Source: Solirubrobacterales bacterium (GTDB taxonomy: Bacteria > Actinomycetota > Thermoleophilia > Solirubrobacterales > 70-9). Taken from it: DNA of 64,000 bases. Below the pieces are notes generated by a model. It made no database searches. It saw only the letters and a program-made list of their open reading frames with translations, and was not told where the DNA came from. The stretch covers positions 3,374-67,373 of the forward strand of contig JAOPZF010000188.1 of assembly GCA_025964255.1 (NCBI GenBank), written 5' to 3'. Of the stretch, positions 18,265 through 37,496 are shown piece after piece; within the stretch, counting starts at the first letter, position 1, and each line of letters begins with the position of its first letter. A program made the translations under genes and the position numbers.

Positions 18265-18338
18265 GCGCCCGTAGCTCAGCCGGATAGAGCGTCGGTCTAC
18301 GAAACCGAAGGTCACTGGTTCGAATCCAGTCGGGCGCA
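18265..18338 (+). tRNA. tRNA-Arg (anticodon ACG); integration target of the downstream islets
   Basis: GCGCCCG...CGGGCGC acceptor stem plus discriminator A, anticodon loop CUACGAA, GGTTCGAATCC T-loop. Its 3' half recurs four more times downstream. Confidence 0.9.
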
Positions 18339-18448
18339 TTCGCGCATTCCGCTTGCCTATTGGTTTTGCGGCTTCTCCGGCGCTCAATCTGAGGACGAAA
18401 TGGAGCCGTGGGGCACGGCATGGGGCACGGTGACGTCGAAGGAGTGGC

Positions 18449-18940
18449 TCAATTAGCCTTGAGATCCAGTCCAGCGCCCTGCACTTTTCTGGGATGTTCG
18501 CTTCCGCCCAGAGCCCGCGAAATTCGCTCCACCGCGTCCGTCGACACCTCGTGCTCCCACACCCTGATGACGGTCCACCCGGCGGTGCTCAGCTGGGCCT
18601 CATTCAGGCGGTCTCGCTCGACGTTTCGGCCGATCTTGGCGCGCCAATAACCAGCGTTCGTCTTCGGGCTCGTTCCGTGGTCGGGGCAGCCGTGCCAGAA
18701 GCAGCCGTCCACAAAGACGGCCACCTTCTTACGCGGGAAGACGATGTCCGCTCGGCAGCGGAGCGTTGCGATCGGCCTCGTATCGACTCGATATCGGAAT
18801 CCGCGTCGATGAAGCTCAGAGCGGATGGCCAGCTCAGGGCGAGTGTCCCGCTTGCGGTTCCCCTGCATCGCTGCCCTAACAGCTGGCGACGAAGCTTCGG
18901 GCGCTTTGGGAACGGTGATGATCGGTCGTCTGGCGCTCAT
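18449..18940 (-). CDS. vsr: very short patch repair endonuclease (Vsr)
   Basis: RPELAIRSELHRRGFRYR, DIVFPRKKVAVFVDGCFWHGC and YWRAKI motifs. Confidence 0.9.
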   Translation of the reverse strand: MSARRPIITVPKAPEASSPAVRAAMQGNRKRDTRPELAIRSELHRRGFRYRVDTRPIATLRCRADIVFPRKKVAVFVDGCFWHGCPDHGTSPKTNAGYWRAKIGRNVERDRLNEAQLSTAGWTVIRVWEHEVSTDAVERISRALGGSEHPRKVQGAGLDLKAN

Positions 18941-20102
18941 TCCATCGGGGGCAGATTCTAGGTTGACAGGCGTGGATGCGATTTCTCTCTTCTCGGGAGC
19001 TGGCGGCCTCGACCTCGGTTGCGAGGCGGCGGGTTTCGACACGCTCGCAGCCGTCGAGTGGGATGAGACTGCGCGGAGGACGATGCTCGCTAACCGCTCG
19101 GAGTTCTTCCCGCAGCTGCGGGAAGAGGCGGTGTTCAGCGACATCCTCGAGACGGAGCCGCAGGATCTGCTGGAGCGGAGCGGCCTCGAATCAGGAGAGG
19201 TGTCTCTGTTGCACGGTGGGCCTCCATGCACCCCCTTCTCCAAGTCCGGCTATTGGCTCGCCTACAAGCGCGCGGGAGAAGACCCGCGGGCAAGTCTGCT
19301 CGACGAGTACATCCGCATGCTGCGAGGCGTTCAGCCGAAGGCGTTTCTCATGGAGAACGTTTACGGGTTGGCCTATCGGAACCAGAATCGCGCGGTGCTC
19401 GAGCGATTCCTGCAAGCGGCGCGGGCCGCCGGTTATGTCGTCGAGTTTCGGATCGTCCTCGCCGCGGATCTCGGCATCCCACAGCTTCGGCAGAGGCTCT
19501 TCTGCGTCGGTATCCGTCGTGATCTCATCTCAGGCTCCTCAAGAGGCTGGGAGTTCGAGTGGCCAGAGCCGACGCACTCAGGCCCGCATGAGACGCGAAC
19601 CGGCTGGAACGAGAACTTGCCGGTCCACGTCAGCGCTGGCCAGGCGCTTGCGTCACTGCCCGACGAGATCAATCCGCCCGAGCCGGAGGAGGTCGTCGAC
19701 GGCACCTATGCCGATGCTCTTCACGCAGTTCCTGCCGGCGAGAATTACCTCTTTTGGACTGCCGAGCGCGGGCACAAGGCACCGCAGTTCAAGTGGCGGT
19801 CGCGCTACTGGAGCTTCCTGTTGAAGCTCCACCCGGACAAGCCGTCCCCCACGATCCAAGGGCAACCGGGTCCTTGGGTTGGGCCATTCCATTGGGACAG
19901 CAGGCGCCTGCGAGTCGCTGAGGTCAAGAGGCTGATGACTTTCCCTGACGACTTCACGGTCCTGGGATCTCGACGGGAACAACAACTCCAGCTCGGCAAC
20001 GCAGTCCCCCCAGACCTCGGGCGAGCGATTGCGGCCGCGATCGCCGACGAACTGAGGTGCCTCGATTCTGCGCCCTCACCGGAACTTGCGCTGGCCGCTT
20101 AG
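18918..20102 (+). CDS. dcm: DNA (cytosine-5)-methyltransferase
   Basis: Motif I ISLFSGAGGLDLG, motif IV GGPPCTPFS, motif VI FLMENV, QLRQR, motif X GNAVPP. Start is either ATG 18918 (overlaps the vsr 5' end) or GTG 18972. Confidence 0.9.
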   Translation: MIGRLALIPSGADSRLTGVDAISLFSGAGGLDLGCEAAGFDTLAAVEWDETARRTMLANRSEFFPQLREEAVFSDILETEPQDLLERSGLESGEVSLLHGGPPCTPFSKSGYWLAYKRAGEDPRASLLDEYIRMLRGVQPKAFLMENVYGLAYRNQNRAVLERFLQAARAAGYVVEFRIVLAADLGIPQLRQRLFCVGIRRDLISGSSRGWEFEWPEPTHSGPHETRTGWNENLPVHVSAGQALASLPDEINPPEPEEVVDGTYADALHAVPAGENYLFWTAERGHKAPQFKWRSRYWSFLLKLHPDKPSPTIQGQPGPWVGPFHWDSRRLRVAEVKRLMTFPDDFTVLGSRREQQLQLGNAVPPDLGRAIAAAIADELRCLDSAPSPELALAA

Positions 20103-20163
20103 GTAGCGGCGCGACCTGCCTGGCATCCTGAGTGCCGGAAGGTTGGGTTAGCTTTCCTGCGAC

Positions 20164-21234
20164 ATGGGGATCCGGTTCGAAGACCAGGCGCTACTTCTCG
20201 CTCTCGATGACGCGCTTGCGCTGGCGCGTTCAACCGAGGAGTTGCCTTCTCTCTGGGTCGCCCGCGTTGAACGTCTCGGTGGCCTAGGGATCAAGACCTA
20301 CATCGCGGCACTGGGCGGCGCCATGCTCGCCAAGGCGACCGATGCCCGGATCGACAGTCTCGCCCAGGACGAGGCGGCGGGCCCTCGCGGTTACAGCCTT
20401 CGGAGAGCTGCCGAGTTTCTCGCTCAGCAGAACAACGATCGATACGACTTGGGCGCGAAGGGACGTTGGCCCCTGAACAATCGGCCCTTCCTTGGCGGCC
20501 CGACCCGAATCGACGACTTCACGAAGATCTCGGGGAAAGCACGACCGGCCTACGAAGCCTTCCTCGACGCGCTCCGGGATCTCAATCGAATCGAGGGCGC
20601 CGAAGCTCTCGCGGTTCTGGCGGCGTTCCTTCGTGTGCGCATGGCCGTTCAAGAGGCCGAGCGAGAGGCGGCCCGCGCGGCCAGAAAGCTCGACAGCAAC
20701 GTCGCCCTCGAGGATCTCGTCGGCATGGCCGACCGATTTGTTCGGGCCGACCCGGAAGGCGGGAAACGCGCCCAGGCACTTGCCGCCGCAGTTTTCGACT
20801 GTGCGTTCGACGATGTTGAGCTCCAGCCCGTCAACAGCCCTCATCCGGGCGACGTTCGGGTTCGCTTGGACCAGGCGATCGTTCTCGCGGTGGAGGCAAA
20901 GCAGCTCCCGGTCAGTGAGGATGTGGCGTCCGAGCTTTCACGAGAGGCAGCCGGACTCGGCGCCGATCTGGCGTTGTTATTTGTGATCGCCGACAGACAC
21001 GCGCCTCTTGATCGTGATCGAGTCCAAAGAGATGCACTGCGCGACGACGGCACCCTTCTTCTTGTGTGCGAGAGCGTCCTGGAGCTGATTGCCTCGGCGG
21101 CGGTCCTTTCCGCGACGTCAGCGGCCCAGGTGGAGGCGGACCTTCCCGGCGGATTCGCGGTCCGAATGCGGGAGATCGAGGTCAGCAAGAACGGCCAGGA
21201 CGAGTGGAGACAACTAATCGAGTCACGATCCTGA
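20164..21234 (+). CDS. putative type II restriction endonuclease partner of the methyltransferase
   Basis: Lies immediately downstream of dcm. Possible PD-(D/E)XK core (PGDVRV...LAVEAKQ). No family recognised with certainty. Confidence 0.45.
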   Translation: MGIRFEDQALLLALDDALALARSTEELPSLWVARVERLGGLGIKTYIAALGGAMLAKATDARIDSLAQDEAAGPRGYSLRRAAEFLAQQNNDRYDLGAKGRWPLNNRPFLGGPTRIDDFTKISGKARPAYEAFLDALRDLNRIEGAEALAVLAAFLRVRMAVQEAEREAARAARKLDSNVALEDLVGMADRFVRADPEGGKRAQALAAAVFDCAFDDVELQPVNSPHPGDVRVRLDQAIVLAVEAKQLPVSEDVASELSREAAGLGADLALLFVIADRHAPLDRDRVQRDALRDDGTLLLVCESVLELIASAAVLSATSAAQVEADLPGGFAVRMREIEVSKNGQDEWRQLIESRS

Positions 21235-21367: not shown

Positions 21368-23068
21368 TCAAGCGCTCCAGCCTTTTACCGCGAGTCTGGC
21401 AAGTTCGCTGGTACGTCTTTCGATGATGGCCTTCGTCCAACTCTTACGTTTCAATGCTTCGGTGGTAAGGGGCGTTTGTTGCCCAAAGGACCGAATTCGC
21501 TGCTTCTTCATCGCCCACTCCCTATTCGCCAAATCGTCATTGGCTCCAGATGGGCCGTCGACCAAAATAAGATTGCCGAGCATATAGGTGTACGAGGGAA
21601 GATCTTCCGCGGTAAATGCGGTCCATTGCCCTTCGGCCGGGGATCTCGGCAAGACGTGCTCGACCGTAAGCGTATCTCGCGGCTTCAGGCCCGACTTATT
21701 CGCGATCTTCTGGTACTCGAGTGCATAAAGGACTGCACGTGCACGTTTGTGCGAAGTTGGGCGGTCGAATGGGAATCGCTGAAATCGCGCCAAGAACTGT
21801 GCGTCACTGAGCGTAAGCATTTCCGTGTCGACGAAATGGGACTTGAGTTGCGGAACGGTAGTTATTGTCCGGCTCTGTATTCCCAGGGCGCCCCGTATAT
21901 AGGCCCGCTCCGCATCGCCCCCACCCGTCCGATCATCGACGAGCCCGCGCATTGACCATGCCGTAATTTTGAGCACCGCGCTACGTTGTCGGTTGCGTCC
22001 AGACTTCGTCGGTTTCTTGCCCGCAAGGTCTCGCATTACGGCAAGGAGCAAGTACCGAAGCTGTTTAAGTCCCAAGCCGTTGAGTAGCTCTATGGCTTGT
22101 TGCGTGCCAGGACCGATCTGATCCCAAAGCGCACTAGAGTCGCCTGGATCAGCGAGGCCGCGGTAGAGCTTGGCGTTCTCGATGAGTTCTTCGAGGGCCG
22201 CTAACGCATCGGTATTAGCGATAGCTGTTCGATAGTCCGTGAAGAATTCCGCTTTCGTAGTTCGACCGTAGCGAGACCCGAAATAGTGGAGGAGGAAACT
22301 CTCTAGATCGTCCTCGTATCGGCCGCTCGAATCCTTAAGCGCCCCGATGACTTCGTTCCACTTTAGGATCGCCAGGCCAGTGTCGGTTGCTCGCGAAATC
22401 AGGTGGCTCTTAACTAAGTCCCCGTTCGACAGTCGAACTCCGCGCGTATTTAAGGTCTCGAAAATGTTGTGTGCGTCCCTTGCGCGGACACGCAGGACGA
22501 CAACATAAGCCTCCTGACGAAGAAAGGTCCCCCATTGCTTTAGCCGGGCAAGTCGGGCGTCCGGTGAAGGTCTCGATTGAAGGTCCGCTTTCAGGTGGGA
22601 GGACAGGCGAGAGCGTGCGGCAACCAATCGTTTCGATGACTCCAAAGAATCGCCGCGTATTCCCGCGCGATTAAGCAAGACTTCCTGATCTTGGGGGCTG
22701 ATACGCAGCGGCACGGATGGGTTCTGCCGAAGGGCTGGAACGACTGCGGCCATAGCGTCGTTGGCAATCTGCGAATCGTGAGGTCCCGAAGCCTTTGCAT
22801 CCTCGATCTCGCTGAAGATCGACGAGGCGAACAGAAGCGTGGTGGCAAGCCGCTGTTGACCGTCTTGAATCTGGTCGTTGGTGTCGAGCACCACCAAGCC
22901 GAGGAAGTAGTCGTCGGGGGGGCGCGCATCCATGGCCCGCTTCAGGTCGGCCCAGAGCTCATCGATCTGCTGGCGCTTCCAGGCGAACGTGCGCTGGAAG
23001 GCGGGCGTCTCCAGTTCGCTCCCGTGATCGAGTAACTGGAGGATTCCCGTGCGTTCAGGAGAGGCCAA
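21368..23068 (-). CDS. GmrSD-type DUF262/DUF1524 protein (type IV modification-dependent restriction enzyme family)
   Basis: DUF262 motifs PAFQRTFAW and IQDGQQRLAT. C-terminal His-Me/DUF1524 motif TVEHVLPRS...LGNLILV. The ORF is open to 23371; TTG 23068 is preferred because DUF262 starts right after it. Confidence 0.75.
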   Translation of the reverse strand: MASPERTGILQLLDHGSELETPAFQRTFAWKRQQIDELWADLKRAMDARPPDDYFLGLVVLDTNDQIQDGQQRLATTLLFASSIFSEIEDAKASGPHDSQIANDAMAAVVPALRQNPSVPLRISPQDQEVLLNRAGIRGDSLESSKRLVAARSRLSSHLKADLQSRPSPDARLARLKQWGTFLRQEAYVVVLRVRARDAHNIFETLNTRGVRLSNGDLVKSHLISRATDTGLAILKWNEVIGALKDSSGRYEDDLESFLLHYFGSRYGRTTKAEFFTDYRTAIANTDALAALEELIENAKLYRGLADPGDSSALWDQIGPGTQQAIELLNGLGLKQLRYLLLAVMRDLAGKKPTKSGRNRQRSAVLKITAWSMRGLVDDRTGGGDAERAYIRGALGIQSRTITTVPQLKSHFVDTEMLTLSDAQFLARFQRFPFDRPTSHKRARAVLYALEYQKIANKSGLKPRDTLTVEHVLPRSPAEGQWTAFTAEDLPSYTYMLGNLILVDGPSGANDDLANREWAMKKQRIRSFGQQTPLTTEALKRKSWTKAIIERRTSELARLAVKGWSA

Positions 23069-23321
23069 TGTGCGGATCCTAAGGCGCGCTCCAGACGCGT
23101 CCCTCGCGTGCCCTGCCGGTAGTGTCGGGAAATGCCTACGTATATATTTGTAAACAGGTATGGAGACCGCTGGTGCGGAGTTGGGATAATTGTGACCATG
23201 CAGCGATGGAAGAACGAAGTTGCCCAGTCCATCGTCTATTCGGGCGAGAGTGATTGTCAGGGGGATCGCGCCTGCCTCGTGGAGGCAAGAGTTGTCTTGA
23301 AACCATTGCTGGAGGCCGACA

Positions 23322-26300
23322 ATGTCTACGACGCCCAGTCGCCCCCGAAAACCGGTTTCTAGGAAGAGCACAAAGGAGAAGTCAGGGTCGACCCGACTAC
23401 TGGCTGACCGCTACGCGCTGCCTGCTGATTTCCGCGAAGGCGGCATGGCCCGGGTCTACAAAGCTGTCGACCTACGGGCCGACAGCAGGATCGTCGCGGT
23501 CAAGATTCTCGACCGCCAGCCCGACGACGCCGCCGTCGCGATGGCCTTCGAGCGCGAGGCCAAGTCGCTTGAGAAACTGAGCCACCCCAACATCGTCGAG
23601 TTGCTCGACGCTGGGCGCGACGGCGAGGAGCGCTATCTCGTCTTCGAATGGATGGAGCAGACGCTCGCCTCGGCGCTGACCACGCCCCCCGGCTGGGAGG
23701 AGTACTTCCGCCGCTGGGGGATCCCGATCCTGAGCGGGCTCGCCCATGCTCACGGCGAGGCAATCGCCCACCGCGACCTTAAGCCTGCGAACGTCCTCCT
23801 CGACGCCGAGCAGCGCCCGCGGATCTCCGACTTTGGCATCGCCAAGATTGTTACCGGCTTCAACCTCGGGCACACCTTGCGCGCCTGGCACTCCGAGCCC
23901 TACACGCCCCCGGAGGCCGACGACGGCATCCACTACTACCAGCGCGACGTCCACGCCTTCGGCGTCCTCTCGCTCTTGGCCTTGACCGGCATCGACCCCG
24001 GAAGCGAGGAGTTCGCGAGCCCCTATGAGGCGATCGAGCGAGCGCTGGGGGAGCTCCAATGCCCCGAGGAGATCGCCGATCTGCTCGCCCGGTCCGTCGC
24101 CGAGGACTGGCATGAGCGGCCCGAGGACGGGGCGGTAGCCCTCGCATCGCTCGAGCAAATCCTCGGCCGCCGGCGGCGCAGCGAACGCGGACCGGGGCTG
24201 CCTCTCTACCTCGCCATCAGTGACAAGGTAGCCCGCTACCTGACCGAGGAGCGGGACCTGCGCACCGCCGCCGAGCAGGAGCGCCATCTGCTTGAGGAGC
24301 TTGAAGGCGGAGCCGCCGTGGGGGCGTTCCCGCAGGGTCGCTTCGATGACGGCAACTCGACCGAGGATCATTACCTTCTCTTCGTCGCGACGCTGCGGCT
24401 TCACGTGCTCGTTAACGGAGCCCGTGACCGTCTGCACGTGGTCGCCTGCCTGGCGATGCGGCCCTCCTACCTGGAGCGGGAGCGGGAACGCTCCTGCGAT
24501 GTCGAATTCGACTGGCGCTTCGGGTCCGCTCCCGCCGAGGAGGGCGGTGATGCGATAGCCGCCCTGGAACGCGAGGTTGAAGAGCACCGTTCCGCACGGC
24601 GGCTTGGGGGTCGCGACAGTGCCGACAGCCTGATCGGCCGTTGGCGCCGCCAGCTGATCGCAACCCGCGCCCTCGAGATGGAGGCTGTGGTCAGCGCCCG
24701 CTACAGAGAGCGCAGGATCGTCGGCCGCTCGATCGAATTTAGATGCCTCGAGGAAGTCCCAGAAGAGCTGCTCGGTGAGACGGTCGCCGACACGGCCGAG
24801 GGCGGGTTCGTGCGCGGCGAGGTGATCCTGATCGAGAGCCGCCGGGTGGTGATGCGGGTCGACGACGGCGACCCACGTGACGTGGCGGCTCAAGGGGAGC
24901 TCCGCACCGACACTGGGGGGATGACCGCCGCGATCAACCGCCAGCACCGGGCGCTCGACTCTCTGGACGAGGACACTGCCGCCCGCAAGGACCTGAAGAG
25001 TCTGGTGGTCGACCCTGCCCTCGCGCGCGCACCCGAGCCGCGCACGGTCACGGACTGGATCCAGGATGTCGACCAGGCGAAGAAGGAGATCGTCTGCCGG
25101 GCGCTTGGCACCGGCGACATCCTCCATGTCGAAGGGCCGCCCGGCACCGGCAAGACGACGCTGATCACTGAGTTAATTCTGCAGGCGCTGCGCGACGATC
25201 CTGATCGGCGGATCCTCCTGTCCGCGAAGACCAACGCCGCGCTCGACAACGTGCTCGAGCGGGTCGCCCAGAAGAATCCCGAGTTGAATCTGATCCGCGC
25301 CGGGCGGATCGATGACCCGCGGGTGTCGGAGGGCGCGGCCGGTTACCTGATCGAGCGCCAGGTGAGGCGCTGGCGCAAGAATGTTGAACGGCGAGGCCGC
25401 AAATTCCTCGCCGCCTGGGCCAAGGAGCGCTCAATCTCCCAGCGTGCGGTCGAGACCGCGACGCTCCTTGAGGAGCTTGCACGCCTCCTCGAGACCTCCT
25501 CCGAGCTCGAAGGCACGCTCCGGGCTCTCGAGCGCGAGCTGGCCCGCATGCGCGCCAAGGATGCCGGGACCGGAACCACCTCGGTGGAGGTGCTCGAGGG
25601 CTTGGTGGAGACGGAGTCCGAGCTGCGGACCCGCCGTAAAGATCTCCAGCATGACCGTGGCGAGCTGATCGATCGCCTGAGCGAGCTCGGTGCGGGAAGC
25701 AAGCGAGAAATTGGAGCGTCGGACCCCGCCGAGTTGCGCGGGCGGGCCCGCGCCGAGGTTCCGGAGCGAACACCCGAGGTCGAGCAATGCCAGCGCATGA
25801 TCGCGGTCCTGGCCGAGTGGCACGCACGCTTCGGCCGCGGCCAGGGCTTCAGTGGCGCCGCTCTCGGCCGGGCGCAGGTTGTCGCCTCGACCTGTGTCGG
25901 CTATGACGGCATTGACGGCGCGGCCGCGATCTCCTTCGACCTGTGCATCGTTGATGAGGCGTCCCAAGCGACGCCGCCGGAGGTCCTGATCCCGATGACG
26001 CGGGCCCGGTCCTGGGTCCTCGTCGGAGACAGCCGTCAGCTCCCGCCCTTCGCTCACCAGGCGCTGCGCGACCCCGAGGTGCTCGCCGAATACAACCTCA
26101 CCGAGGGCCAGGCGCAGGAAACTCTCTTTTCGCGCTGGGGCGCAGGACTCGGCACGGACTCCCGGGCGGCCCTGCGGCTCCAGCACCGCATGGCCCCGGC
26201 TATCTCGAAGCTGATCAGCCACTGCTTCTATGACGGGACTCTCGAAGATGCCGAGGTCGAGAGCCGCAAGGACGTCTTGAGCGCCCTGCCGGCACCGGTG

Positions 26301-31095: not shown

Positions 31096-31133
31096 GAAAC
31101 CGAAGGTCACTGGTTCGAATCCAGTCGGGCGCA
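31096..31133 (+). repeat. direct repeat C of the tRNA-Arg 3' end (att-like)
   Basis: gaaaccgaaggtcactggttcgaatccagtcgggcgca is an exact match to 18301..18338. Confidence 0.9.
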
Positions 31134-31990: not shown

Positions 31991-32211
31991 TGCGGTCGAA
32001 ACTCCTCCCAGGAGAGACCGGCTTTCGCTTCGTCCTCCGTCATGTGGCGGAGGACGCCGCGCGACGCTCGTGCGCTGAACTGCTCCAGCTCGGCCAAATC
32101 ATCGGGATCCCGCTCGCCCTCAACAGTTTGCTGCAGCCGCTGGTACTCGACTGCCAGCTCTTCCTCGGAGAGCCGATCGAGGAGCTTCTCGACTTTCTCA
32201 CGGGTCGTCAT
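31987..32211 (-). CDS. antitoxin (DUF2281-like N-terminus) of the MazF-family toxin
   Basis: 74 aa, MTTREKVEKLLDRLSEEEL..., acidic. Has a 4-nt overlap with the toxin gene. Confidence 0.6.
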   Translation of the reverse strand: MTTREKVEKLLDRLSEEELAVEYQRLQQTVEGERDPDDLAELEQFSARASRGVLRHMTEDEAKAGLSWEEFRPQ

Positions 32212-32324
32212 CTTGGAACAGGGTACCGGCCAACTCCGTTTCGGGCTGACATTTCGACTGCACTGATCGGGTCGCATTTCGGTCGCATCGAGGCGGCGAG
32301 ACCGCCTGGTGAGCCGAGGTATCC

Positions 32325-32369
32325 CGGTCTACGAACCGAAGGTCACTGGTTCGAATCCAGTCGGGCGCA
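32325..32369 (+). repeat. direct repeat D of the tRNA-Arg 3' half (att-like)
   Basis: cggtctacgaa-ccgaaggtcactggttcgaatccagtcgggcgca. Identical to the tRNA 3' half except for a 1-nt deletion. Confidence 0.9.
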
Positions 32370-32577: not shown

Positions 32578-33381
32578 ATGGCTGCCCCCTCCGATCGACC
32601 TCACCCGGACCCCGCCCCGCTCGCCGGCCGGGTCGCCCTCGTCAGCGGCGCCGGCAGCGCCGAGGGCATCGGCTTCTCGATCGCCCGGCGTCTGGCCGGC
32701 GACGGCGCGGCGGTGGCTGTCGGCGCCACGGGCCCGCACGTCCTCGAGCGCGTGCGGGAACTGGTCGCCGAGGGAGCGACGGCGGCCGGCTTCCAGGCCG
32801 ACCTGCGCGACCGCGAAGCGGCGGCGGAAGCCGTCGCCGACATCGTCGCCACGCTCGGCCCTGTCGACGTCCTCGTCAACAACGCCGGCATGGGCACCCG
32901 CGCCGAGCCCGCCCCGGCGGCGCGACTCGTCGACCTCGATCCCGAGGACTGGGATCGCCAGCTGCAGATGACCCTGACCAGCGCCTTCAACGTCACCCGC
33001 CTGCTCCTGCCGGGGATGCTCGAGCGCGGCTGGGGGCGGGTCATCAACATCGGTTCGGTCACCGGGCCGCTGGTCAGCTACGCGGGCCAGTCCGCCTACG
33101 CGGCGGCCAAGGGGGGGCTCGACGGGCTGATGCGCACCGCGGCGATCGAGAGCGCCGCCGGGGGCGTGACCGTCAACACCGTCGCCCCGGGCTGGATCGC
33201 GACCGCGGCGAGCAGCGAGGAGGAGATCGCCGCCGGCGACGCCAGCCCGCTCGGCCGTCCCGGCCGGCCGCGCGAGGTCGCCGCCGCGGTCGCCTTCCTG
33301 GCATCCCCTGACGCCGGCTACATCACCGGCCATTCGTTGGTCGTCGATGGGGGCAACAGCGTGGCGGAGGACCACCGCTGA
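32578..33381 (+). CDS. SDR family oxidoreductase (FabG-like)
   Basis: VALVSGAGSAEGIG, NNAG and YAAAKGG motifs. Confidence 0.85.
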   Translation: MAAPSDRPHPDPAPLAGRVALVSGAGSAEGIGFSIARRLAGDGAAVAVGATGPHVLERVRELVAEGATAAGFQADLRDREAAAEAVADIVATLGPVDVLVNNAGMGTRAEPAPAARLVDLDPEDWDRQLQMTLTSAFNVTRLLLPGMLERGWGRVINIGSVTGPLVSYAGQSAYAAAKGGLDGLMRTAAIESAAGGVTVNTVAPGWIATAASSEEEIAAGDASPLGRPGRPREVAAAVAFLASPDAGYITGHSLVVDGGNSVAEDHR

Positions 33382-33430
33382 GCTTCGACCGCCGCGCTGC
33401 CCTCGGGCCCCGGAACTTCGATCTACCGCT

Positions 33431-34888
33431 CTAGATTGTCTCCCCTTCGGCGATCTCCGCACGCCCGTTTCCGGCCGCCAGCCACTGCTGCAGAAGATGC
33501 GCCGTCATCGGCTGGGCAAACAGGAAGCCTTGGACAGCGTCGCATCCCATGCGCGCCAACTGCTCCAACTCCTCGCGAGTCTCCACACCCTCCGCGGTAA
33601 TTCGAAGATCGAGTTGTCGCCCGAGGTCGATTATCGACCGGACCACTCGCATTGTGCGCTGGTCGGATCCCATCCCGGCGACAAATGAGCGATCGATCTT
33701 GAGCTCGTCCAGAGGCAGCAGGCTGAGGCGACCCAATGAGGAGTAGCCGGTACCGAAGTCATCGATCGAGATGGTGACGCCGAGCTCGCGAAGCTCGGCG
33801 AGCCTGCGAGCCGCGTTCGCTCCCTCGGCGCTCATGAGCCCGCTCTCGGTGACCTCCAAAGTGAGCATGGCCGCCGGGAGCCCGGAACTGTTGAGCGCCC
33901 GGGTCACCTGGTCGACGACGTTATCTCCGGCCAGCGCCGGGGCGGAGATATTGACCGCGACCGGGAGCTCCAGGCCCTCGTCCCGCCAGTGCGCACAGGC
34001 CGCGGTCGCCTGCTCGAGCACCGTGTCGGTGAACTTATCCAGCAGCCGGCTGCCCTCCAGCAACGGGACGAACACGCCGGGTCCGAGAAGTCCTCGCTCG
34101 GGATGGTTCCAGCGCACCAACGCCTCGGCTCCGAGCACCGTGCTCGGCGGGATCGAGAACTGCGGCTGGAACAACAGCTGCAGCTCGTCGCGGTCCATCG
34201 CGACATCCAGGCGGGCCAGCGTGCGCTCCCGCTCGCGGTCCTGTCTCGTCGGCAAGCGCTGGACCATCCAGGTCATCAGCGGCACCAATGCCGCAAAGAG
34301 GAGAACGGCACCGATCCCGACCGCCAGATAAAGCTTCTCCCGAACGTTGTCGAGCTGACTCTCCACTGCCGGGCGTGGCAACGTGATCTCGGCCACGAAG
34401 CGCCGCCCGCTCGTTCCGAATGCCACCGCCGTACGGACATCGAGGATGCCCTGATCGTTGGCGACGACGGCTTGGCCCCGGTTCGTCCGCAAAGCCGTTC
34501 GCGCCAGGGTCGGGAGGGGCGCGGACGAACTCGTGCTCCTGTGGCCCGCCGCGTCGCTGAAGAGAAGACGCCCGGCCGGGTCCCACACGAGGACGCCCTT
34601 CAGGCCCAATATCGACCGAGCGGCGGAGAACTGCGCTTCGGCGGCAACCACGTCGGCATGGCTGAGGCGGCCATCGCTGATCGCCCCCGCGAAGGCGACC
34701 TCCGCGAGGAGTTCGCCGTCGTGGATCGCGCTGCTCCGGCCACTTTCGATCATGCCGTCTTCGGCGATCGAGGTCGCCACGAACGCGCCCCCGGCGCCGA
34801 TCAGCAAGGCGAGCAGAGCGAGCAAGACCACCAGGCGCCGCCTGCCGGTCTTGCTGAGGTGTCGCCGAACGTCAATTGACTCAGTCAA
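33431..34888 (-). CDS. membrane-anchored EAL-domain protein (putative c-di-GMP phosphodiesterase) with a periplasmic-type sensor region
   Basis: Two TM segments flank an approximately 190-aa region. EAL domain motifs: QPQF...GAEALVRW, ELTES-like LEVTESG, DDFGTGYSSL, KIDRSF, EGVET. Start uncertain (TTG 34888, GTG 34831 or TTG 34825). Confidence 0.8.
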   Translation of the reverse strand: MTESIDVRRHLSKTGRRRLVVLLALLALLIGAGGAFVATSIAEDGMIESGRSSAIHDGELLAEVAFAGAISDGRLSHADVVAAEAQFSAARSILGLKGVLVWDPAGRLLFSDAAGHRSTSSSAPLPTLARTALRTNRGQAVVANDQGILDVRTAVAFGTSGRRFVAEITLPRPAVESQLDNVREKLYLAVGIGAVLLFAALVPLMTWMVQRLPTRQDRERERTLARLDVAMDRDELQLLFQPQFSIPPSTVLGAEALVRWNHPERGLLGPGVFVPLLEGSRLLDKFTDTVLEQATAACAHWRDEGLELPVAVNISAPALAGDNVVDQVTRALNSSGLPAAMLTLEVTESGLMSAEGANAARRLAELRELGVTISIDDFGTGYSSLGRLSLLPLDELKIDRSFVAGMGSDQRTMRVVRSIIDLGRQLDLRITAEGVETREELEQLARMGCDAVQGFLFAQPMTAHLLQQWLAAGNGRAEIAEGETI

Positions 34889-34893
34889 TTGAC
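34871..34893. promoter_or_regulatory. tandem palindromic operator GTCAATTGAC-tca-GTCAATTGAC in the divergent EAL / XRE-MEDS intergenic region
   Basis: Two perfect 10-bp palindromes at 34871..34880 and 34884..34893 (13-bp spacing), directly upstream of the HTH regulator gene. Confidence 0.6.
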
Positions 34894-34923
34894 AACACGG
34901 TAACACGTGCCAGAATTCGACAG

Positions 34924-35673
34924 ATGGGGGGTAAACCGGACAATGGGGCAGTCGCGCTTCGGATGAAGGCCGCTCGGGGTCGGGCCGGGATGTCTCGTGA
35001 GGAGCTGGCGGTGCAGAGCGGCTTGAGCTGGTCGGCCATCGCGCAAATCGAGGATGGCCGTCGTCCCCATCCCCGCGCCGACACGCTGGGTGCGCTGGCG
35101 CCAGCCTTGGGGGTGAGCGTCGACTATCTCTTAGGTAACGATGGTACGGCCGCCGCGCTGCTCGACCACCAAGCCCTGATCTACGCCGATGTAGCCGCCT
35201 TCGTCGAGACGGCCGCTCCGTTTCTGCAGGAGGGTGCCGAAACGGGGGAGGCGATCTTGGTGGTCGCCGATCCTGAGAACGTCGAAGGCTTGAGAGAGGC
35301 CCTTGGCCGCCCGGCGGCAAAGATCCACTTCGGCGATTGGCAGACGTGGTATGCCTCACCCCGGAAAGCGCTGCTCGGATACCGGCAGTTCGCAACCGAG
35401 GCGCTGGATGCGGGAGCGCCCTGGGTCCGCATCGTCGGCGAGCCGGTCTGGGCCGACCGGACTCGCGACGAGATCGATACCTGGGTGCGGTACGAGGCGC
35501 TGATCAATCTGGCCTTCGCCGCGCTGCCGATGAGCCTGATCTGTCCCTACAACGAGAGGGTGGTCGACCCAGAGATCCTCCGCAACGCCCGGATGACCCA
35601 TTGCCGCTGCCTCGAGCGCGGCCAGAGCACGGAGAACCCGGACTTCGGGGATCCCTTGGACTTCTGCCTTTAG
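34924..35673 (+). CDS. XRE-family HTH regulator fused to a MEDS (DcmR-like sensory) domain
   Basis: HTH MSREELAVQSGLSWSAIAQIEDGRR. The C-terminal part resembles MEDS (HQALIY..FLQEG...GEAILVVA...RIVGEPVW...EALINLAF). ATG 34924 is preferred over TTG 34876, which lies inside the palindrome. Confidence 0.7.
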   Translation: MGGKPDNGAVALRMKAARGRAGMSREELAVQSGLSWSAIAQIEDGRRPHPRADTLGALAPALGVSVDYLLGNDGTAAALLDHQALIYADVAAFVETAAPFLQEGAETGEAILVVADPENVEGLREALGRPAAKIHFGDWQTWYASPRKALLGYRQFATEALDAGAPWVRIVGEPVWADRTRDEIDTWVRYEALINLAFAALPMSLICPYNERVVDPEILRNARMTHCRCLERGQSTENPDFGDPLDFCL

Positions 35674-35802
35674 CCGGCGTCGCCGGCGCAGCGGTCAGCC
35701 CGACAAAGAGAACACACGGTGAAGGCGTGCCGGCAAGGGGCCGACAACTCGACCGGTTCCAGATGCGAACGCCGTCAATTTCGATAGTTTCCTTGTCAAG
35801 CG

Positions 35803-37410
35803 ATGGCCGATCACCGCGAGATCGAATTCGGCGTCTTCGTTACGCCGTCCAACCAGGAGCCCGAGGGGGTCGTCGCGCTGGCCGAGCTGGCGGAGCGGGT
35901 CGGGCTCGACATCGTCAGCTTCCAGGACCACCCTTACCAGGCGCGGTTCCTCGATACCTGGACGCTGCTCTCCTACGTCGCCGCCCGGACCAGCCGGGTC
36001 AAGTTGGCCCCGAACGTCCTCAACCTGCCGTTGCGGCCTCCCTCGGTCGTCGCCAGGTCGGTGGCGAGCCTCGACCTGCTGAGCGGCGGCCGGGTCGAGC
36101 TGGGGATCGGGTCCGGCGCGTTCTGGGACGCGATCGTGGCGATGGGAGGAACGCGGTTGACCCCTGCCCAGGCCGTCGACGCACTCGACGAGGCGATCGA
36201 GGTGATCCGAATCCTCTGGGACGTCGAGGGCCGCGGCGGCGCTCGTTTCGAGGGCGAGCACTACAGCCTGACGGGCGCCCCGCGGGGGCCGGCGCCGGCG
36301 CATCCGGTCGGCATCTGGGTCGGGGCGTACAAACCGCGGATGCTGGCACTGACCGGGCGCAAGGCGGACGGATGGCTGCCGAGCGTTCCGTATCTCGAGC
36401 GGGCCCAGCTGACCAGCGGCAACGCGGCGATCGACGAAGCCGCCCTCGCCGCGGGGAGGGACCCGGCTGCCGTCAGGCGCCTGCTGAACGTCTCCGGCTC
36501 TTTCGCGGATGGCGAACCGGGACCGCTCGACGGGCCGGTCGAGAGGTGGGTCGAGGAGCTGTCCCGACTCGCGATCGAGGAGCGGATCTCCGCCTTCATC
36601 ATCGGCGGGGACGACGCCGCCACGATCGAGCTCTTCGGCGAGGAGGTGGCGCCCGCTGTCCGCGAGCTGGTCGCCGCGGAGCGCGCCGGCACCGGGGAGG
36701 ACGCCGCCCCGCCACCGGGCGACGGTGCGTCCGGGCCGCCGCCGCCGGAGCGGAAGAGCATCGGGCCCATCTCGGTCCCGTCGGAGGCCTCCGAGTACGA
36801 GCGCCTCGGCGTGACCCCGACGCCTGACGACGGCGTGCGGCTGAGCCCGTCCCTCCCCTGGGATGAGTCGACGCGCCCCTACCGTCAGCCGTCGCCCCCG
36901 GAGGTCACCTACACCGAGCGGGGTCGTCAGGTGGGCCGGCACCTGATCGACGTCCACGACGGGCTGCGCAGCGAGCTGACCGAGCTGCGCGAGGTGGTCG
37001 AGCAGGTCAAGGAGGGGGCGCGCAGCGCCGGCGAAGCCCGCGCGGCCCTGAACGAGATGGCGCTGCGGCAGAACGACTGGACGCTCGGCGCCTTCTGCAG
37101 CCGCTATTGCCGCGCGGTCGCCCAGCATCACGGGCTCGAGGACGAGGCGATCTTCCCCCACCTGCGCCGCGCCGAATCCGAGTTGGAGCCCGTCATCGAC
37201 CGCCTCACCGAGGAGCACCTCGTCATCCACGACGGGATCGAGGCCGTCGACCGCGCCCTCGTCGACCACATGAGCAATCCGACTGATTTCGACCGCCTTC
37301 AGGCCGCGATCGACATGCTCACCGACACCCTGCTCTCGCATCTCTCCTATGAGGAGGTCGAGCTGGTCGAGCCCCTCGCCAGGCTCGGCTTCTACCCAAA
37401 CCAGGTCTGA
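35803..37410 (+). CDS. LLM-class (luciferase-like) flavin/F420-dependent oxidoreductase fused to a C-terminal hemerythrin-like domain
   Basis: LLM N-terminus (FGVFVTP...FQDHPYQ...GRVELGIGSG). Pro-rich linker. Hemerythrin-like HLIDVHDGLRSEL...HHGLEDEAIFPHL...EEHLVIH. Confidence 0.7.
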   Translation: MADHREIEFGVFVTPSNQEPEGVVALAELAERVGLDIVSFQDHPYQARFLDTWTLLSYVAARTSRVKLAPNVLNLPLRPPSVVARSVASLDLLSGGRVELGIGSGAFWDAIVAMGGTRLTPAQAVDALDEAIEVIRILWDVEGRGGARFEGEHYSLTGAPRGPAPAHPVGIWVGAYKPRMLALTGRKADGWLPSVPYLERAQLTSGNAAIDEAALAAGRDPAAVRRLLNVSGSFADGEPGPLDGPVERWVEELSRLAIEERISAFIIGGDDAATIELFGEEVAPAVRELVAAERAGTGEDAAPPPGDGASGPPPPERKSIGPISVPSEASEYERLGVTPTPDDGVRLSPSLPWDESTRPYRQPSPPEVTYTERGRQVGRHLIDVHDGLRSELTELREVVEQVKEGARSAGEARAALNEMALRQNDWTLGAFCSRYCRAVAQHHGLEDEAIFPHLRRAESELEPVIDRLTEEHLVIHDGIEAVDRALVDHMSNPTDFDRLQAAIDMLTDTLLSHLSYEEVELVEPLARLGFYPNQV

Positions 37411-37452
37411 GATCGACCGCGCACGACGAGCATCTGTCGAGTGCGCATTCCT

Positions 37453-37496
37453 GGTCTACGAAACCGAAGGTCGTTGGCTCAAATCCAATCGGGCGG
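37453..37496 (+). repeat. diverged direct repeat E of a tRNA-Arg(ACG) 3' half (probable ancestral chromosomal 3' half)
   Basis: ggtctacgaaaccgaaggtcgttggctcaaatccaatcgggcgg. About 7 substitutions versus the intact tRNA. T-stem changes are compensatory (ACTGG/CCAGT to GTTGG/CCAAT). Confidence 0.75.

What the first reader, a model, noticed from the sequence alone, without database searches (positions are those of the whole stretch)
18265..37496. tRNA-Arg(ACG) used serially as an integration site: five direct copies of its 3' half delimit four integrase-less islets (~19 kb)
Seen in sequence. The intact tRNA is at 18265..18338. Its 3' 38-45 nt recur in direct orientation at four further sites:
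- 28265..28309, with a 1-nt deletion.
- 31096..31133, an exact match.
- 32325..32369, with a 1-nt deletion.
- 37453..37496, with about 7 substitutions. The T-stem changes in this copy are compensatory, so it derives from a functional but different tRNA-Arg 3' half.
Two further details suggest near-completely deleted junctions. The 10 nt just before the last copy (gcgcattcct, 37443..37452) equal the tRNA end plus the flank found after copies C and D. Directly after the intact tRNA, the 8-mer gcgcattc is tandemly duplicated (18334..18349).
Inference. Elements carrying a tRNA-3'-half attP integrated repeatedly. The outermost diverged copy would be the ancestral chromosomal 3' half. I recognise no tyrosine or serine recombinase in any islet, so the islets are either decayed or mobilised in trans.
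Basis: partly seen in the sequence, partly recalled or inferred. Interest (0 to 1): 0.75.

Follow-up and report, generated by a model that had tools for sequence, protein, structure and literature searches.

The report
Stacked gene islets behind one tRNA
A soil actinobacterium (Solirubrobacterales) has stacked at least four small mobile-DNA islets, one of them a phage-defence island, behind a single tRNA-Arg gene; this is a clear example of a known process, and all the islets have lost or never had their own integrase.

Summary
An intact tRNA-Arg(ACG) lies at 18265-18338. Direct copies of its 3' 38-45 nt lie at 28265, 31096, 32325 and 37453.

Relatives in Solirubrobacterales keep the upstream genes (P450, pyruvate kinase, ECH, DUF4442, ABC ATPase, tRNA). 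What follows the tRNA is never the same, and it is often bounded by the same tRNA fragments.

The junctions carry two kinds of arm:
- Family 1 has paired GGGGCAC sites at 18410, 28151 and 28382. It flanks islet 1, which holds Vsr, a C5 methylase, a SacI-like nuclease, GmrSD and Mokosh MkoA/MkoB.
- Family 2 has a paired GTCGCAT site at 32271 and a conserved arm after copy C. It flanks islet 3, which holds MazEF.

In relatives, family 2 elements carry an excisionase and a tyrosine integrase. Family 1 arms are linked to a second integrase type that sits right after the tRNA. Loss of the integrase by deletion is seen directly in two pairs (L182 vs L022, L013 vs L004).

The window holds no trace of either integrase. 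Copy E matches a natural T-stem variant, which fits an ancestral chromosomal origin.

Verdict: serial site-specific integration, followed by decay into integrase-less, CIME-like islets. This is a new member of a known kind. The recurrent integrase-less family 1 cassettes are the interesting remainder.

The parts
18265..18338 (+). Intact tRNA-Arg(ACG), copy A. It is the integration target and the regenerated attL core.
   Evidence: ARAGORN; Rfam tRNA model, 72.4 bits.
18339..18428 (+). Family 1 left (attL) arm. It holds a remnant of the tRNA terminator hairpin, then the paired site GGGGCAC-N5-GGGGCAC at 18410-18428, 71 nt after the tRNA.
   Evidence: The paired motif is found 3 times in the window against 0.03 expected. 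The arm aligns with 10 arms from other loci.
18449..18994 (-). Vsr very-short-patch repair endonuclease (islet 1).
   Evidence: Pfam PF03852, E = 1.2e-17. It is 86-88% identical to ORFs in L020 and L025.
18825..20102 (+). C5 cytosine DNA methyltransferase (islet 1). The true start is probably downstream of 18825.
   Evidence: Pfam PF00145, E = 8.6e-56. PADLOC type II methyltransferase.
20164..21234 (+). SacI-like type II restriction endonuclease (islet 1).
   Evidence: Pfam PF09566, E = 3.9e-17. PADLOC REase_II, E = 2.9e-29.
21368..23371 (-). GmrSD-type (type IV, HEC-06-like) restriction enzyme. It lies in a stretch of low G+C (56-59%).
   Evidence: Pfam GmrSD_N and GmrSD_C. PADLOC HEC-06, E = 1.4e-78. 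Composition profile.
23322..26792 (+). Mokosh MkoA, a kinase fused to a superfamily 1 helicase.
   Evidence: PADLOC MkoA, E = 1e-212. Pfam Pkinase, AAA_11 and AAA_12.
26762..28111 (+). Mokosh MkoB.
   Evidence: PADLOC MkoB, E = 3.1e-55.
28151..28264 (+). Family 1 right (attR) arm. It holds GGGGCACGAAATGGGGCAC (28151-28169), three CAGCCGA repeats and a degenerate tRNA 5' half. It ends at copy B.
   Evidence: It is 80-91% identical to the distal ends of islets in L005, L011, L015, L020, L022 and L025. It also matches about 20 metagenome arms.
28265..28309 (+). Copy B of the tRNA 3' part, with a 1-nt deletion in the T-loop.
28310..28400 (+). Second family 1 left arm. It holds the terminator hairpin and the paired GGGGCAC site at 28382-28400, 72 nt after copy B.
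   Evidence: It is 80% identical to L020 17292-17542.
28755..30794 (+). Islet 2 cargo: a 679-aa protein with a bacterial Ig-like domain.
   Evidence: Pfam Big_3_5, E = 9.4e-16.
31096..31133 (+). Copy C, an exact match to tRNA positions 37-74. No family 1 right arm precedes it, so the right end of islet 2 is truncated.
31134..31217 (+). Family 2 left arm, partial. The paired GTCRCAT site expected about 120 nt after the core is missing.
   Evidence: It is 74-83% identical to the sequence directly after the tRNA in L001, L013, L014, L016 and L023, and after a fragment in L011.
31679..32277 (-). Islet 3 cargo: MazF/PemK toxin (31679-31990) and its upstream partner (31987-32277).
   Evidence: Pfam PemK_toxin, E = 7.3e-10. 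The partner is 44% identical to a stretch at the right end of the L004 islet.
32271..32288 (+). Family 2 right-arm paired site GTCGCAT-N4-GTCGCAT. It lies 60 nt before the CGAAACC of copy D.
   Evidence: It is the only occurrence in the window (shuffle mean 0.115). The spacing is the same as in the integrase-bearing elements of L013 and L023. The same pair follows the integrase stop codon in prophage ends L175 and L177.
32325..32369 (+). Copy D, with a 1-nt deletion.
32578..37410 (.). Islet 4 cargo: a short-chain dehydrogenase (32578-33381 +), an EAL-domain protein (33431-35395 -), an HTH-MEDS regulator (34876-35673 +) and a luciferase-like monooxygenase fused to hemerythrin (35803-37410 +).
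   Evidence: Pfam.
37384..37452 (+). Junction remnant. GCGCATTCCT (37443-37452) is the tRNA end plus the family 2-type flank. A very degenerate sixth copy may lie upstream of it.
   Evidence: The 10-mer is found only at the ends of C and D and here. The local alignment of the upstream 72 nt to the tRNA scores in the top 1.3% of random windows, which is weak.
37453..37496 (+). Copy E, the outermost and most diverged copy. It is the probable original chromosomal 3' half.

Best explanation
**What happened**
The 3' part of the tRNA-Arg(ACG) gene, from about position 29 to the end, is the attB of several families of small integrative elements in Solirubrobacterales. Each incoming element carries its own copy of that tRNA part inside an attP of about 250 bp. 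Integration regenerates the tRNA and pushes the previous 3' half outward. Repeating this built the array: tRNA, islet 1, B, islet 2, C, islet 3, D, islet 4, (remnant), E. The youngest islet is next to the tRNA. Copy E is what remains of the original chromosomal gene end.

**The two element families**
- Family 1 covers islets 1 and 2. Its arms carry paired GGGGCAC sites on both sides of the core.
- Family 2 covers islet 3, and its 5-nt flank is also seen after D and before E. Its arms carry paired GTCRCAT sites.
- These pairs are most likely the arm-type binding sites of two different tyrosine integrases. One is an L013-type integrase with an HTH_17 excisionase (family 2). The other is an L023b-type integrase that sits directly after the tRNA core (family 1).

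**Present state**
- In this genome both integrases are gone.
- Islet 3 is a deletion remnant. It keeps one arm site and its toxin-antitoxin pair.
- Islet 2 has lost its right arm.
- Islet 1, a 9.9-kb phage-defence island, keeps both arms complete. It is therefore a CIME-like element that could still be excised or moved if a matching integrase is supplied from elsewhere.

**Shown and inferred**
- Shown: the repeats, the arms, the cargo, the integrase-bearing relatives, the deletion derivatives, and the absence of an integrase here.
- Inferred: the order of events, the binding role of the paired motifs, which integrase serves which arm, and any present-day mobility.
For: **Repeats and cargo**
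- The repeats and the tRNA are confirmed.
- Islet contents come from Pfam and PADLOC.

**Comparative context**
- About 25 relatives share the upstream synteny, and none shares the downstream DNA.
- Bounded islets occur at the same tRNA in L004, L005, L010, L011, L015, L020, L022-L025 and L182.

**Family 1 arms**
- The boundary is sharp, the 19-mer is invariant in 7 of 7 loci found independently of it, and the spacings are fixed.
- RNAalifold on 28 arms shows covariation only in the tRNA-derived stems, which points to DNA sites rather than an RNA.

**Family 2 arms**
- The pair sits 60-61 nt before the core in the window, L013 and L023, and about 120 nt after the core in L013, L014 and L023.
- The same pair lies directly after the integrase stop codon and before a tRNA fragment in prophage ends L175 and L177.

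**Integrases**
- Pfam Phage_integrase matches L013, L014 and L023 and L023b.
- The family 2 module is xis followed by int.
- Both integrase types are abundant: 1418 and 684 homologues.

**Decay seen directly**
- L004 has an internally deleted family 2 integrase and shares its right-end genes with L013.
- L022 and L072 equal the L182 cassette minus a 1.44-kb stretch that holds the integrase.
- L064 carries the same integrase with stop codons in it.

**L182 array**
- At the same locus, L182 has the tRNA, a family 2 element with xis and int, a fragment, an L023b-type integrase with a cargo and a family 1 right arm, a fragment, a copper-resistance cassette with family 1 arms, and a last fragment.

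**No integrase in the window**
-.

**Copy E**
- It matches a natural T-stem variant. A chimera of the tRNA 5' part with copy E is still called tRNA-Arg by ARAGORN.

**Precedent**
- Successive integrations with leftover partial tRNAs are described for tycheposons (10.1101/2020.12.28.424599).
- CIME and accretion are described in PMC5704250.
Against: - No empty site, and no near-identical strain with a different islet content, was found. Recent movement is therefore not shown.
- The methylase and nuclease part of islet 1 is 83-84% identical in nucleotides to L020 and L025. The neighbouring core genes are 86-87% identical. That islet is therefore old or vertically inherited, not a recent arrival.
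- Inside islet 1 the right-hand cargo differs between genomes without any att copy in between. Processes other than site-specific integration also reshape the array.
- The link between family 1 arms and the L023b-type integrase rests on one element lineage seen in three contigs, and there the arm next to the integrase is truncated.
- The arms of islet 4 are not recognisable beyond 5-12 nt.
- The genes just beyond copy E (37505-41481) are also absent from all relatives. The right limit of the variable region is therefore not established.
Confidence: 0.8

Rival explanations
1. The islets are inert fossils. All four descend from integrase-bearing elements that decayed in place long ago. The conserved arms are leftovers with no present function, and nothing in the array can move any more.
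For: - There is no integrase in the window.
- Copies B and D each carry a 1-nt deletion.
- Islets 2 and 3 have lost one arm.
- The methylase and nuclease module has diverged as much as the core genes.
- Deletion derivatives are documented in relatives.
Against: - The non-coding family 1 arms stay 80-91% identical across genomes whose core genes are 85-88% identical. Their boundaries are sharp and their spacing is fixed.
- The same arms flank about 15 different cargoes, and they are joined to two different tRNA cores. Neutral leftovers would not be expected to do this.
- No shared integrase remnant lies beside these arms.
Confidence: 0.35
2. The region is a hot spot driven by homologous recombination. 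It is a hypervariable segment exchanged between strains by recombination in the conserved flanks and arms. The tRNA fragments are relics of one or two old integrations, not of four or five separate events.
For: - The right-hand cargo of islet 1 differs between the window, L020 and L025, while the restriction module and both arms are shared and no att copy lies in between.
- The downstream DNA is different in every relative.
- Arm types and tRNA cores occur in mosaic combinations in L062, L094 and L096.
Against: - Each islet boundary carries its own tRNA copy starting at the same tRNA position, with family-specific arms at fixed distances.
- Arrays of up to five fragments with cassettes of 0.7-2 kb exist, as in L105.
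- Integrase-bearing members sit inside such arrays, as in L182 and L023.
Confidence: 0.12
3. The copies arose by tRNA gene duplication and pseudogene decay. No mobile element is involved, and the copies are remnants of a former tandem tRNA-Arg gene array.
For: - The arm just upstream of copy B contains a degenerate tRNA 5' half.
- Arm-plus-fragment units score weakly as whole tRNAs: 23-30.5 bits.
Against: - All copies keep only the 3' part, starting at positions 29-37.
- The G+C content of the islets is foreign, and the cargo is defence genes and a toxin-antitoxin pair.
- The arms carry paired sites.
- Integrases lie in homologous positions in relatives.
Confidence: 0.02
4. The repeats are an assembly artefact, produced by collapsed or chimeric joins at a repeated tRNA sequence.
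For: None was found. The window's own genome could not be located in other assemblies.
Against: - The repeats are 38-45 nt, shorter than reads, and each copy has its own indels or substitutions.
- The same arm-fragment-arm junctions occur in independent assemblies, including long-read ones (L011, L013, L020, L182).
Confidence: 0.01

Closest known systems
tRNA-gene genomic islands in tandem arrays (Islander-type tDNA islands)
   Same: There is an intact tRNA gene plus displaced 3' fragments in direct orientation. The attP-sized arms are about 250 bp. The site is inferred to be of the anticodon type, so the element supplies the new 3' half. Newer elements push older ones outward (PMC4383910).
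   Different: Islander accepts an island only if it holds an integrase, and it counts a tandem only when each member has its own integrase. Under those rules just 4 of 3919 islands were in arrays of three or more. Here four or five successive islets have none.
CIMEs and accretion-mobilisation (ICESt1/ICESt3 of Streptococcus thermophilus; Streptomyces pathogenicity islands)
   Same: [quoted passage not shown] Islet 1 fits this description.
   Different: No conjugation or relaxase genes are seen in any relative's element. The cassettes are as small as 0.7-2 kb. The same integrase-less arm family recurs with about 15 cargoes and on two tRNA targets. Mobilisation has not been tested.
Tycheposons of Prochlorococcus
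   Same: They are tRNA-targeted tyrosine-recombinase elements carrying adaptive or defence cargo. Successive integrations are separated by partial tRNAs. Degenerate integrases and extra partial tRNAs are scattered through the island (10.1101/2020.12.28.424599).
   Different: The phylum is different, and the integrase families are not shown to be related. No replication module (helicase or primase) was seen in the elements inspected. Membership was not tested beyond this.
Actinomycete integrative elements of the pSAM2/SLP1 type (from general knowledge)
   Same: They have an int-xis module and an attP that contains the 3' end of a tRNA gene, from the anticodon loop to the end. The hosts are Actinomycetota.
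   Different: Those elements carry replication and FtsK-like transfer genes. None was found in the Solirubrobacterales elements inspected.
Integron cassette arrays (analogy only)
   Same: Short cassettes without a recombinase, each ending in a conserved recombination site, are stacked next to a fixed chromosomal anchor.
   Different: There is no IntI, no attI and no attC hairpin. The sites here are double-stranded attP-like units built around a tRNA half, and the recombinases are ordinary phage-type tyrosine integrases.

Membership tests
tDNA-integrated genomic island (Islander definition) | An intact tRNA gene plus a displaced 3' fragment of the same gene, in the same orientation and downstream. 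| tested here: met
   There are four fragments, all on the + strand and all downstream.
tDNA-integrated genomic island (Islander definition) | A tyrosine integrase gene inside the candidate island. | tested here: not met
   Pfam on all plausible ORFs. tblastn and HMMs of both cognate integrase families against six frames of 18339-37500 gave a best E-value of 0.19 and HMM scores below 5 bits.
CIME (cis-mobilisable element) | Integration and transfer genes are lost, but attL and attR are retained. | tested here: met
   Islet 1 has a complete family 1 left arm (18339-18428) and right arm (28151-28264), each with its paired sites, and no integrase. Islets 2 and 3 each keep only one arm.
CIME (cis-mobilisable element) | It can be excised or transferred when a related integrase-bearing element is supplied. 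| not testable with these tools
   This needs PCR or long reads for circles, or a recombination assay.
Tycheposon | A hallmark tyrosine recombinase clade plus a replication module, in an element at one of the island tRNAs. | not tested
   There is no integrase in the window. The relatives' integrases were not compared with tycheposon recombinases. No helicase or primase was seen in L013, L179 or L182.
Integron | An IntI integrase with an adjacent attI, and attC sites with imperfect inverted repeats. | tested here: not met
   No integrase is present. The junction units contain direct paired repeats and a tRNA half. No conserved hairpin or covariation exists outside the tRNA stems.
Mokosh type I defence system | Adjacent MkoA (kinase-helicase) and MkoB genes. 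| tested here: met
   PADLOC MkoA, E = 1e-212 over 25-1150 of 1156 aa. PADLOC MkoB, E = 3.1e-55. The genes overlap by 31 nt.
Type II restriction-modification with Vsr | A C5 methyltransferase, a cognate endonuclease and a Vsr repair nuclease, clustered together. | tested here: met
   Pfam DNA_methylase, RE_SacI and Vsr. The trio is conserved in L020 and L025.
Lambda-type attP with arm-type integrase sites | Short repeated sites on both arms, at fixed distances from the core, bound by the integrase N-terminal domain. | tested here: inconclusive
   The repeats, spacing and conservation are shown. L175's integrase gives a faint Arm-DNA-bind_3 hit, E = 0.0077. Binding itself cannot be tested here.

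The most novel reading that the evidence does not exclude
The family 1 units could define a cassette system anchored on a tRNA, comparable in logic to an integron.

**The unit**
It is about 250 bp long. It holds a GGGGCAC pair, about 95 nt, a tRNA 3' half with a degenerate 5' half, a terminator, about 40 nt, and a second GGGGCAC pair.

**The proposal**
- Integrase-less cassettes of 0.7-10 kb are inserted and shuffled at tRNA-Arg(ACG).
- In other bacteria the same happens at the initiator tRNA-Met.
- A tyrosine integrase acting in trans does the work. The candidate is the L023b-type integrase.
- The cassettes often carry defence genes. Others carry copper-resistance or secreted-protein genes.
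- The result is an array of up to five or more cassettes.
Probability: 0.3. Interest if true: 0.65.

Novelty: new member of a known kind. Interest (0 to 1): 0.42.

Why it matters
- It gives a clean, dissected example of how a single tRNA gene becomes a long-lived landing pad that collects defence systems in a poorly studied soil lineage. The systems collected here are a restriction-modification module with Vsr, GmrSD and Mokosh.
- It shows the steps of decay side by side in relatives: an intact xis-int element, an integrase pseudogene, a precise integrase deletion, and a bare cassette with arms.
- The paired motifs are ready-made predictions for the arm-binding specificity of two abundant, uncharacterised integrase families.
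- If the family 1 cassettes really are moved in trans, they would be a simple natural system for site-specific cargo delivery at a tRNA gene. They would also explain part of defence-island turnover in Actinomycetota.

Tried and rejected
**Searches for an integrase**
- Elsewhere in the window: the ORFs next to both tRNA-Ser genes and in the low-G+C stretch at 43-45 kb were checked. None is an integrase.
- In about 40 individually scanned ORFs of related family 1 islets: none.
- A pooled Pfam scan of 131 ORFs showed no recombinase among the 25 most frequent families. The output lists only those 25, so single hits could be hidden.

**Is the family 1 arm an RNA?**
- Rfam finds only weak whole-tRNA matches.
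- RNAalifold on 28 arms shows compensatory changes only in the tRNA-derived stems. The idea was rejected.

**Metagenome scan with the 19-mer GGGGCACGAAATGGGGCAC**
- Most of the 115 hits have no arm similarity and no tRNA, and appear to be unrelated sequence. Read in frame, the 19-mer codes G-H-E-M-G-H, an HExxH zinc-site motif.
- The invariance of the 19-mer in those loci is by construction. Only the 7 genome loci found through a flanking protein are unbiased.

**Viral contig scans with arm patterns**
- There were 0 hits and 3 irrelevant hits. L172 has five GGGGCAC repeats beside an HTH_17 gene but no link to a tRNA.

**A possible integrase C-terminal remnant in the tail of MkoB (27929-28099)**
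- Pairwise BLASTP gives E = 0.012 with 33% identity over 57 aa. Profile comparison gives a probability of 0.8%. The idea was rejected.

**Search for an empty site**
- The genes right of copy E are absent from all relatives. Only the glutaminase gene reappears, in L021, 1.5 kb after the tRNA. No empty site can be defined.

**Exact-protein look-ups to find the source genome or sister strains**
- Nothing useful was found.

**A sixth, very degenerate tRNA copy at 37384-37447**
- The local alignment is in the top 1.3% of random windows. This is suggestive only.

Full report
**1. The observation**

ARAGORN finds three tRNAs in the window. One is tRNA-Arg(ACG) at 18264-18339. Rfam places it at 18265-18338 with 72.4 bits.

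A short-word BLASTN of the tRNA plus 20 nt of flank against the window finds four further direct copies of the 3' part:
- 28265-28317, with one T missing in the T-loop.
- 31096-31136, exact.
- 32325-32372, with one A missing.
- 37453-37495, with 5 of 43 mismatches. Counting the last two bases, this is 7 of 45.

A 29-mer of the 3' end is expected 0.00 times by chance and is found three times.

**2. What the islets hold**

High G+C produces many spurious ORFs. I therefore selected genes by third-position G+C and scanned them with Pfam and PADLOC.

| Islet | Coordinates | Contents |
|---|---|---|
| 1 | 18339-28264 | Vsr (18449-18994, -); C5 methylase (18825-20102); SacI-like endonuclease (20164-21234); GmrSD/HEC-06 enzyme (21368-23371, -, 56-59% G+C); Mokosh MkoA (23322-26792, E = 1e-212); MkoB (26762-28111) |
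| 2 | 28310-31095 | A 679-aa protein with an Ig-like domain |
| 3 | 31134-32324 | A MazF toxin and its upstream partner |
| 4 | 32370-37452 | A short-chain dehydrogenase; an EAL protein; an HTH-MEDS regulator; a luciferase-like monooxygenase fused to hemerythrin |

Islet 1 is a phage-defence island. No ORF in any islet is a recombinase.

**3. Relatives**

I used the ABC ATPase gene just upstream of the tRNA to fetch 56 loci from species-representative genomes. Loci L001-L037 are orthologous loci of Solirubrobacterales and related Thermoleophilia.

- The upstream genes (P450, pyruvate kinase, enoyl-CoA hydratase, DUF4442, ABC ATPase, tRNA-Arg) are conserved in about 25 of them.
- Nothing downstream of the tRNA is conserved. 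The one exception is a glutaminase gene (window 41509-43320), which lies 1.5 kb after the tRNA in L021.
- Ten loci show the tRNA followed by one or two islets ending in the same tRNA 3' fragment.
- L020 and L025 carry the same Vsr-methylase-nuclease module as the window, directly after the tRNA.

This tRNA is therefore a hot spot across the order. No empty site could be defined.

**4. Two families of junction arms**

*Family 1.*
- The 114 nt before copy B (28151-28264) are 80-91% identical to the DNA before the distal fragment in L005, L011, L015, L020, L022 and L025. The cargo in each of these is different.
- Conservation starts abruptly at GGGGCACGAAATGGGGCAC.
- The pair GGGGCAC-N5-GGGGCAC occurs three times in the window against 0.03 expected. 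It lies 71 nt after the tRNA (18410), 114 nt before copy B (28151) and 72 nt after copy B (28382).
- The left arms of 11 loci align. They share a terminator-like hairpin and the pair at 71-75 nt.
- About half of these left arms contain GCGCA-TTC-GCGCA.

*Family 2.*
- The 84 nt after copy C are 74-83% identical to the DNA directly after the tRNA in L001, L013, L014, L016 and L023, and after a fragment in L011.
- These arms carry a pair GTCRCAT-N(2-6)-GTCNCAT about 120 nt after the core.
- A second pair lies 60-61 nt before the distal fragment in L013 and L023.
- The window has exactly one such pair, at 32271-32288, with the same 60-nt spacing to copy D (shuffles give 0.115).

The resulting assignments are:
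- Islet 1 has both family 1 arms.
- Islet 2 has a family 1 left arm only.
- Islet 3 has a partial family 2 left arm and a family 2 right-arm pair.
- Copy D and the remnant before E are followed by the first 5-12 nt of the family 2 left arm (ttcct...).

**5. The integrases**

*Family 2.*
- Family 2 elements in L013, L014 and L023 encode a Pfam Phage_integrase protein.
- With gene calls from other assemblies, the module reads: several HTH genes, an HTH_17 excisionase, the integrase, cargo, then a toxin-antitoxin pair at the right end.
- This integrase is very common: 1418 database proteins at E <= 1e-20, with the top 120 at least 82% identical.
- Integrases 42-45% identical to it end three prophage-sized viral contigs. 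In two of them the stop codon is followed by GGTCGCAT-N3-GGTCGCAT and then a tRNA 3' fragment of another tRNA. This ties the pair to this integrase family.

*Family 1.*
- A second integrase type (L023 17677-18828; Pfam E = 3.3e-21; 25% identical to the first) lies 33-230 nt after the tRNA or a fragment in L023, L006, L182, L183 and L184. Remnants occur in L064 and L105.
- Locus L182 lies at the same chromosomal site. In order, it shows:
  1. the tRNA;
  2. a family 2 element with xis and int;
  3. a fragment;
  4. the second integrase type, followed after 215 nt by the first 25 nt of the family 1 right arm, then two secreted-protein genes and a full family 1 right arm;
  5. a fragment;
  6. 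a copper-resistance cassette between family 1 arms;
  7. a last fragment.

The second integrase type is therefore the best candidate partner of family 1 arms. This rests on one element lineage seen in L064, L144 and L182.

**6. Decay is seen directly**

- L004 has a family 2 integrase with an internal deletion (residues 1-151 joined to 338-363). It shares its right-end genes, including a Fic toxin, with L013.
- L022 and L072 carry the same two-gene cassette as L182, 92% identical. In them the tRNA plus 11 nt is joined straight to the middle of the GGGGCAC pair, so 1.44 kb holding the integrase is gone.
- L064 has the same integrase with two in-frame stops.
- In the window, tblastn with five integrases found nothing: best E = 0.19. 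HMMs built from 120 members of each family, run on all stop-to-stop ORFs of 18339-37500, scored at most 4 bits.
- A weak match of the MkoB tail to the integrase C-terminus did not survive profile comparison: probability 0.8%.

**7. Family 1 cassettes usually lack an integrase**

- A metagenome scan with the 19-mer returned 115 stretches. Most have no arm similarity and no tRNA, and appear to be unrelated sequence; read in frame, the 19-mer spells G-H-E-M-G-H, an HExxH motif.
- About 30 loci hold true arms.
- Across these and the genome loci I count about 15 bounded cassettes of 0.7-9.9 kb. L105 has five fragments within 5.1 kb.
- Their cargoes include restriction enzymes, NACHT and STAND ATPases, kinases, Schlafen-like and Mrr-like proteins, a Dyp peroxidase, RTX and RHS proteins, copper-resistance genes and dehydrogenases.
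- Only the L182 lineage has an integrase.
- The same arm family is also joined to the 3' half of an initiator-type tRNA-Met. L127 and L162 hold the intact tRNA-Met at the other end.
- Arm subtype and tRNA core occur in mixed combinations in L062, L094 and L096.
- RNAalifold on 28 arms finds compensatory changes only in the anticodon and T stems taken from the tRNAs. The arm most likely acts as DNA.

**8. Copy E and the order of events**

- Fragments begin at tRNA position 29-30 in most cases. I infer this to be Islander's anticodon-type attP class, in which the element supplies the new T-arm and acceptor end. The class itself is listed in PMC4383910.
- Relatives show natural T-stem variants. 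L001, L005 and L013 have ATTGG/CCAAT, and L023 has ACAGG/CCTGT.
- L001 is the closest relative (95% nucleotide identity in the core genes). It has ATTGG/CCAAT in its intact tRNA.
- Copy E (GTTGG/CCAAT) differs from that variant at 5 of 45 positions, and from the window's own tRNA at 7 of 45.
- A chimera of the tRNA's first 29 nt with copy E is still called tRNA-Arg(ACG) by ARAGORN.
- L011 shows the same pattern: an ACTGG tRNA with an outermost ATTGG fragment.

This fits copy E being the original chromosomal 3' half, slightly decayed.

The 10-mer GCGCATTCCT abutting copy E occurs elsewhere only at the ends of C and D. This fits a further junction whose islet was deleted. A very degenerate sixth copy just upstream is possible but weak.

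**9. Limits**

- The methylase-nuclease module is 83-84% identical to L020 and L025. The adjacent core genes are 86-87% identical. Islet 1 is therefore not a recent arrival.
- Inside islet 1 the right-hand cargo differs between genomes with no att copy in between. It is GmrSD plus Mokosh here, a NACHT protein in L020, and a kinase in L025. Other processes therefore also remodel the array.
- No sister strain or empty site was available.
- Whether any islet can still move is not known.

**10. Comparison with known systems**

- The architecture is that of tDNA islands in tandem (PMC4383910).
- The integrase-less islet with both att arms matches the definition of a CIME within the accretion model (PMC5704250).
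- Successive integrations that leave partial tRNAs and degraded integrases have been described for tycheposons in Prochlorococcus (10.1101/2020.12.28.424599).
- The case is therefore a new member of a known kind, in a lineage where I found no paper on such elements. One full-text search combining Solirubrobacterales with island terms gave nothing relevant.
- The part that goes beyond the known picture is the recurrence of integrase-less family 1 cassettes, some of them single-gene sized, on two tRNA targets. I rate that reading at about 0.3.

Noticed in passing
window 12071-12930: A DUF4231/SLATT-domain gene (12208-12930, -) sits directly after tRNA-Ser(GCT) (12071-12161), in a dip of G+C to 64%. 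No tRNA-Ser fragment was found in the window, so it may be a small, old islet or simply a neighbouring gene.
   Followed up: partly
window 37505-43320; L021 12499-14307: The genes just right of copy E are a GFO/IDH/MocA oxidoreductase, an S13 peptidase and an M23 peptidase. They are absent from the 10 kb after the tRNA in all relatives. The next gene, a glutaminase, lies 1.5 kb after the tRNA in L021 at 88% nucleotide identity. The variable region may therefore extend beyond copy E, to about 41.5 kb.
   Followed up: partly
window 21235-28150 compared with L020 13862-17291 and L025 13842-16343: Three genomes share the Vsr-methylase-nuclease module and both family 1 arms. Between the nuclease and the right arm they hold different defence genes: GmrSD plus Mokosh, a NACHT ATPase, or a protein kinase. 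No tRNA copy lies at the swap point.
   Followed up: partly
L012 2787-2829; L018 6134-6177: In two relatives the tRNA-Arg gene matches only up to position 44 and then continues into unrelated sequence. In L012 a 2330-aa ORF follows. This looks like an insertion or rearrangement that did not regenerate the tRNA within the stretch held.
   Followed up: no
L065-L067, L069, L074, L083, L094, L112, L117, L127, L138, L145, L162: The family 1 right arm (about 74% identical) is joined to the 3' half of an initiator-type tRNA-Met instead of tRNA-Arg. L094 has an Arg-type unit and a Met-type unit only 45 nt apart. L096 has an intact tRNA-Met at one end and an Arg-type fragment at the other.
   Followed up: partly
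metagenome loci L057-L171 without arms: Read in frame, the 19-mer GGGGCACGAAATGGGGCAC codes G-H-E-M-G-H, an HExxH zinc-site motif. Most exact matches in metagenomes have no arm similarity and no tRNA, and appear to be unrelated sequence.
   Followed up: yes
L172 9430-9521 (IMG/VR contig of 53.5 kb): A non-coding stretch holds five GGGGCAC-like repeats at a 12-nt period. It lies next to a divergent HTH_17/AlpA-like gene and a 366-aa protein with no Pfam match. No tRNA or fragment is nearby. It may be an unrelated iteron or operator array.
   Followed up: partly
L181 8253-8348 and 16750: A family 2 xis-int element lies at a different locus, upstream of the secE-nusG-rplK genes. It sits next to a 96-nt ARAGORN call of 'tRNA-Pro(agg)' whose first 15 nt equal those of tRNA-Arg. 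A GTCGCAT pair lies near its far end.
   Followed up: no
window 44624-45013: A small secreted protein rich in Lys, Glu and Ala, with repeats, causes an extreme AT skew of up to 0.47 at 44.4-45.4 kb. It is ordinary coding sequence, not a mobile-element feature.
   Followed up: yes
L014 12807-13733; L019 11131-12525; L024 13138-14520: Insertion-sequence transposases have landed inside the islets behind the same tRNA in relatives. L014 and L024 have IS110 family members, and L019 has a DDE group 1 transposase.
   Followed up: no
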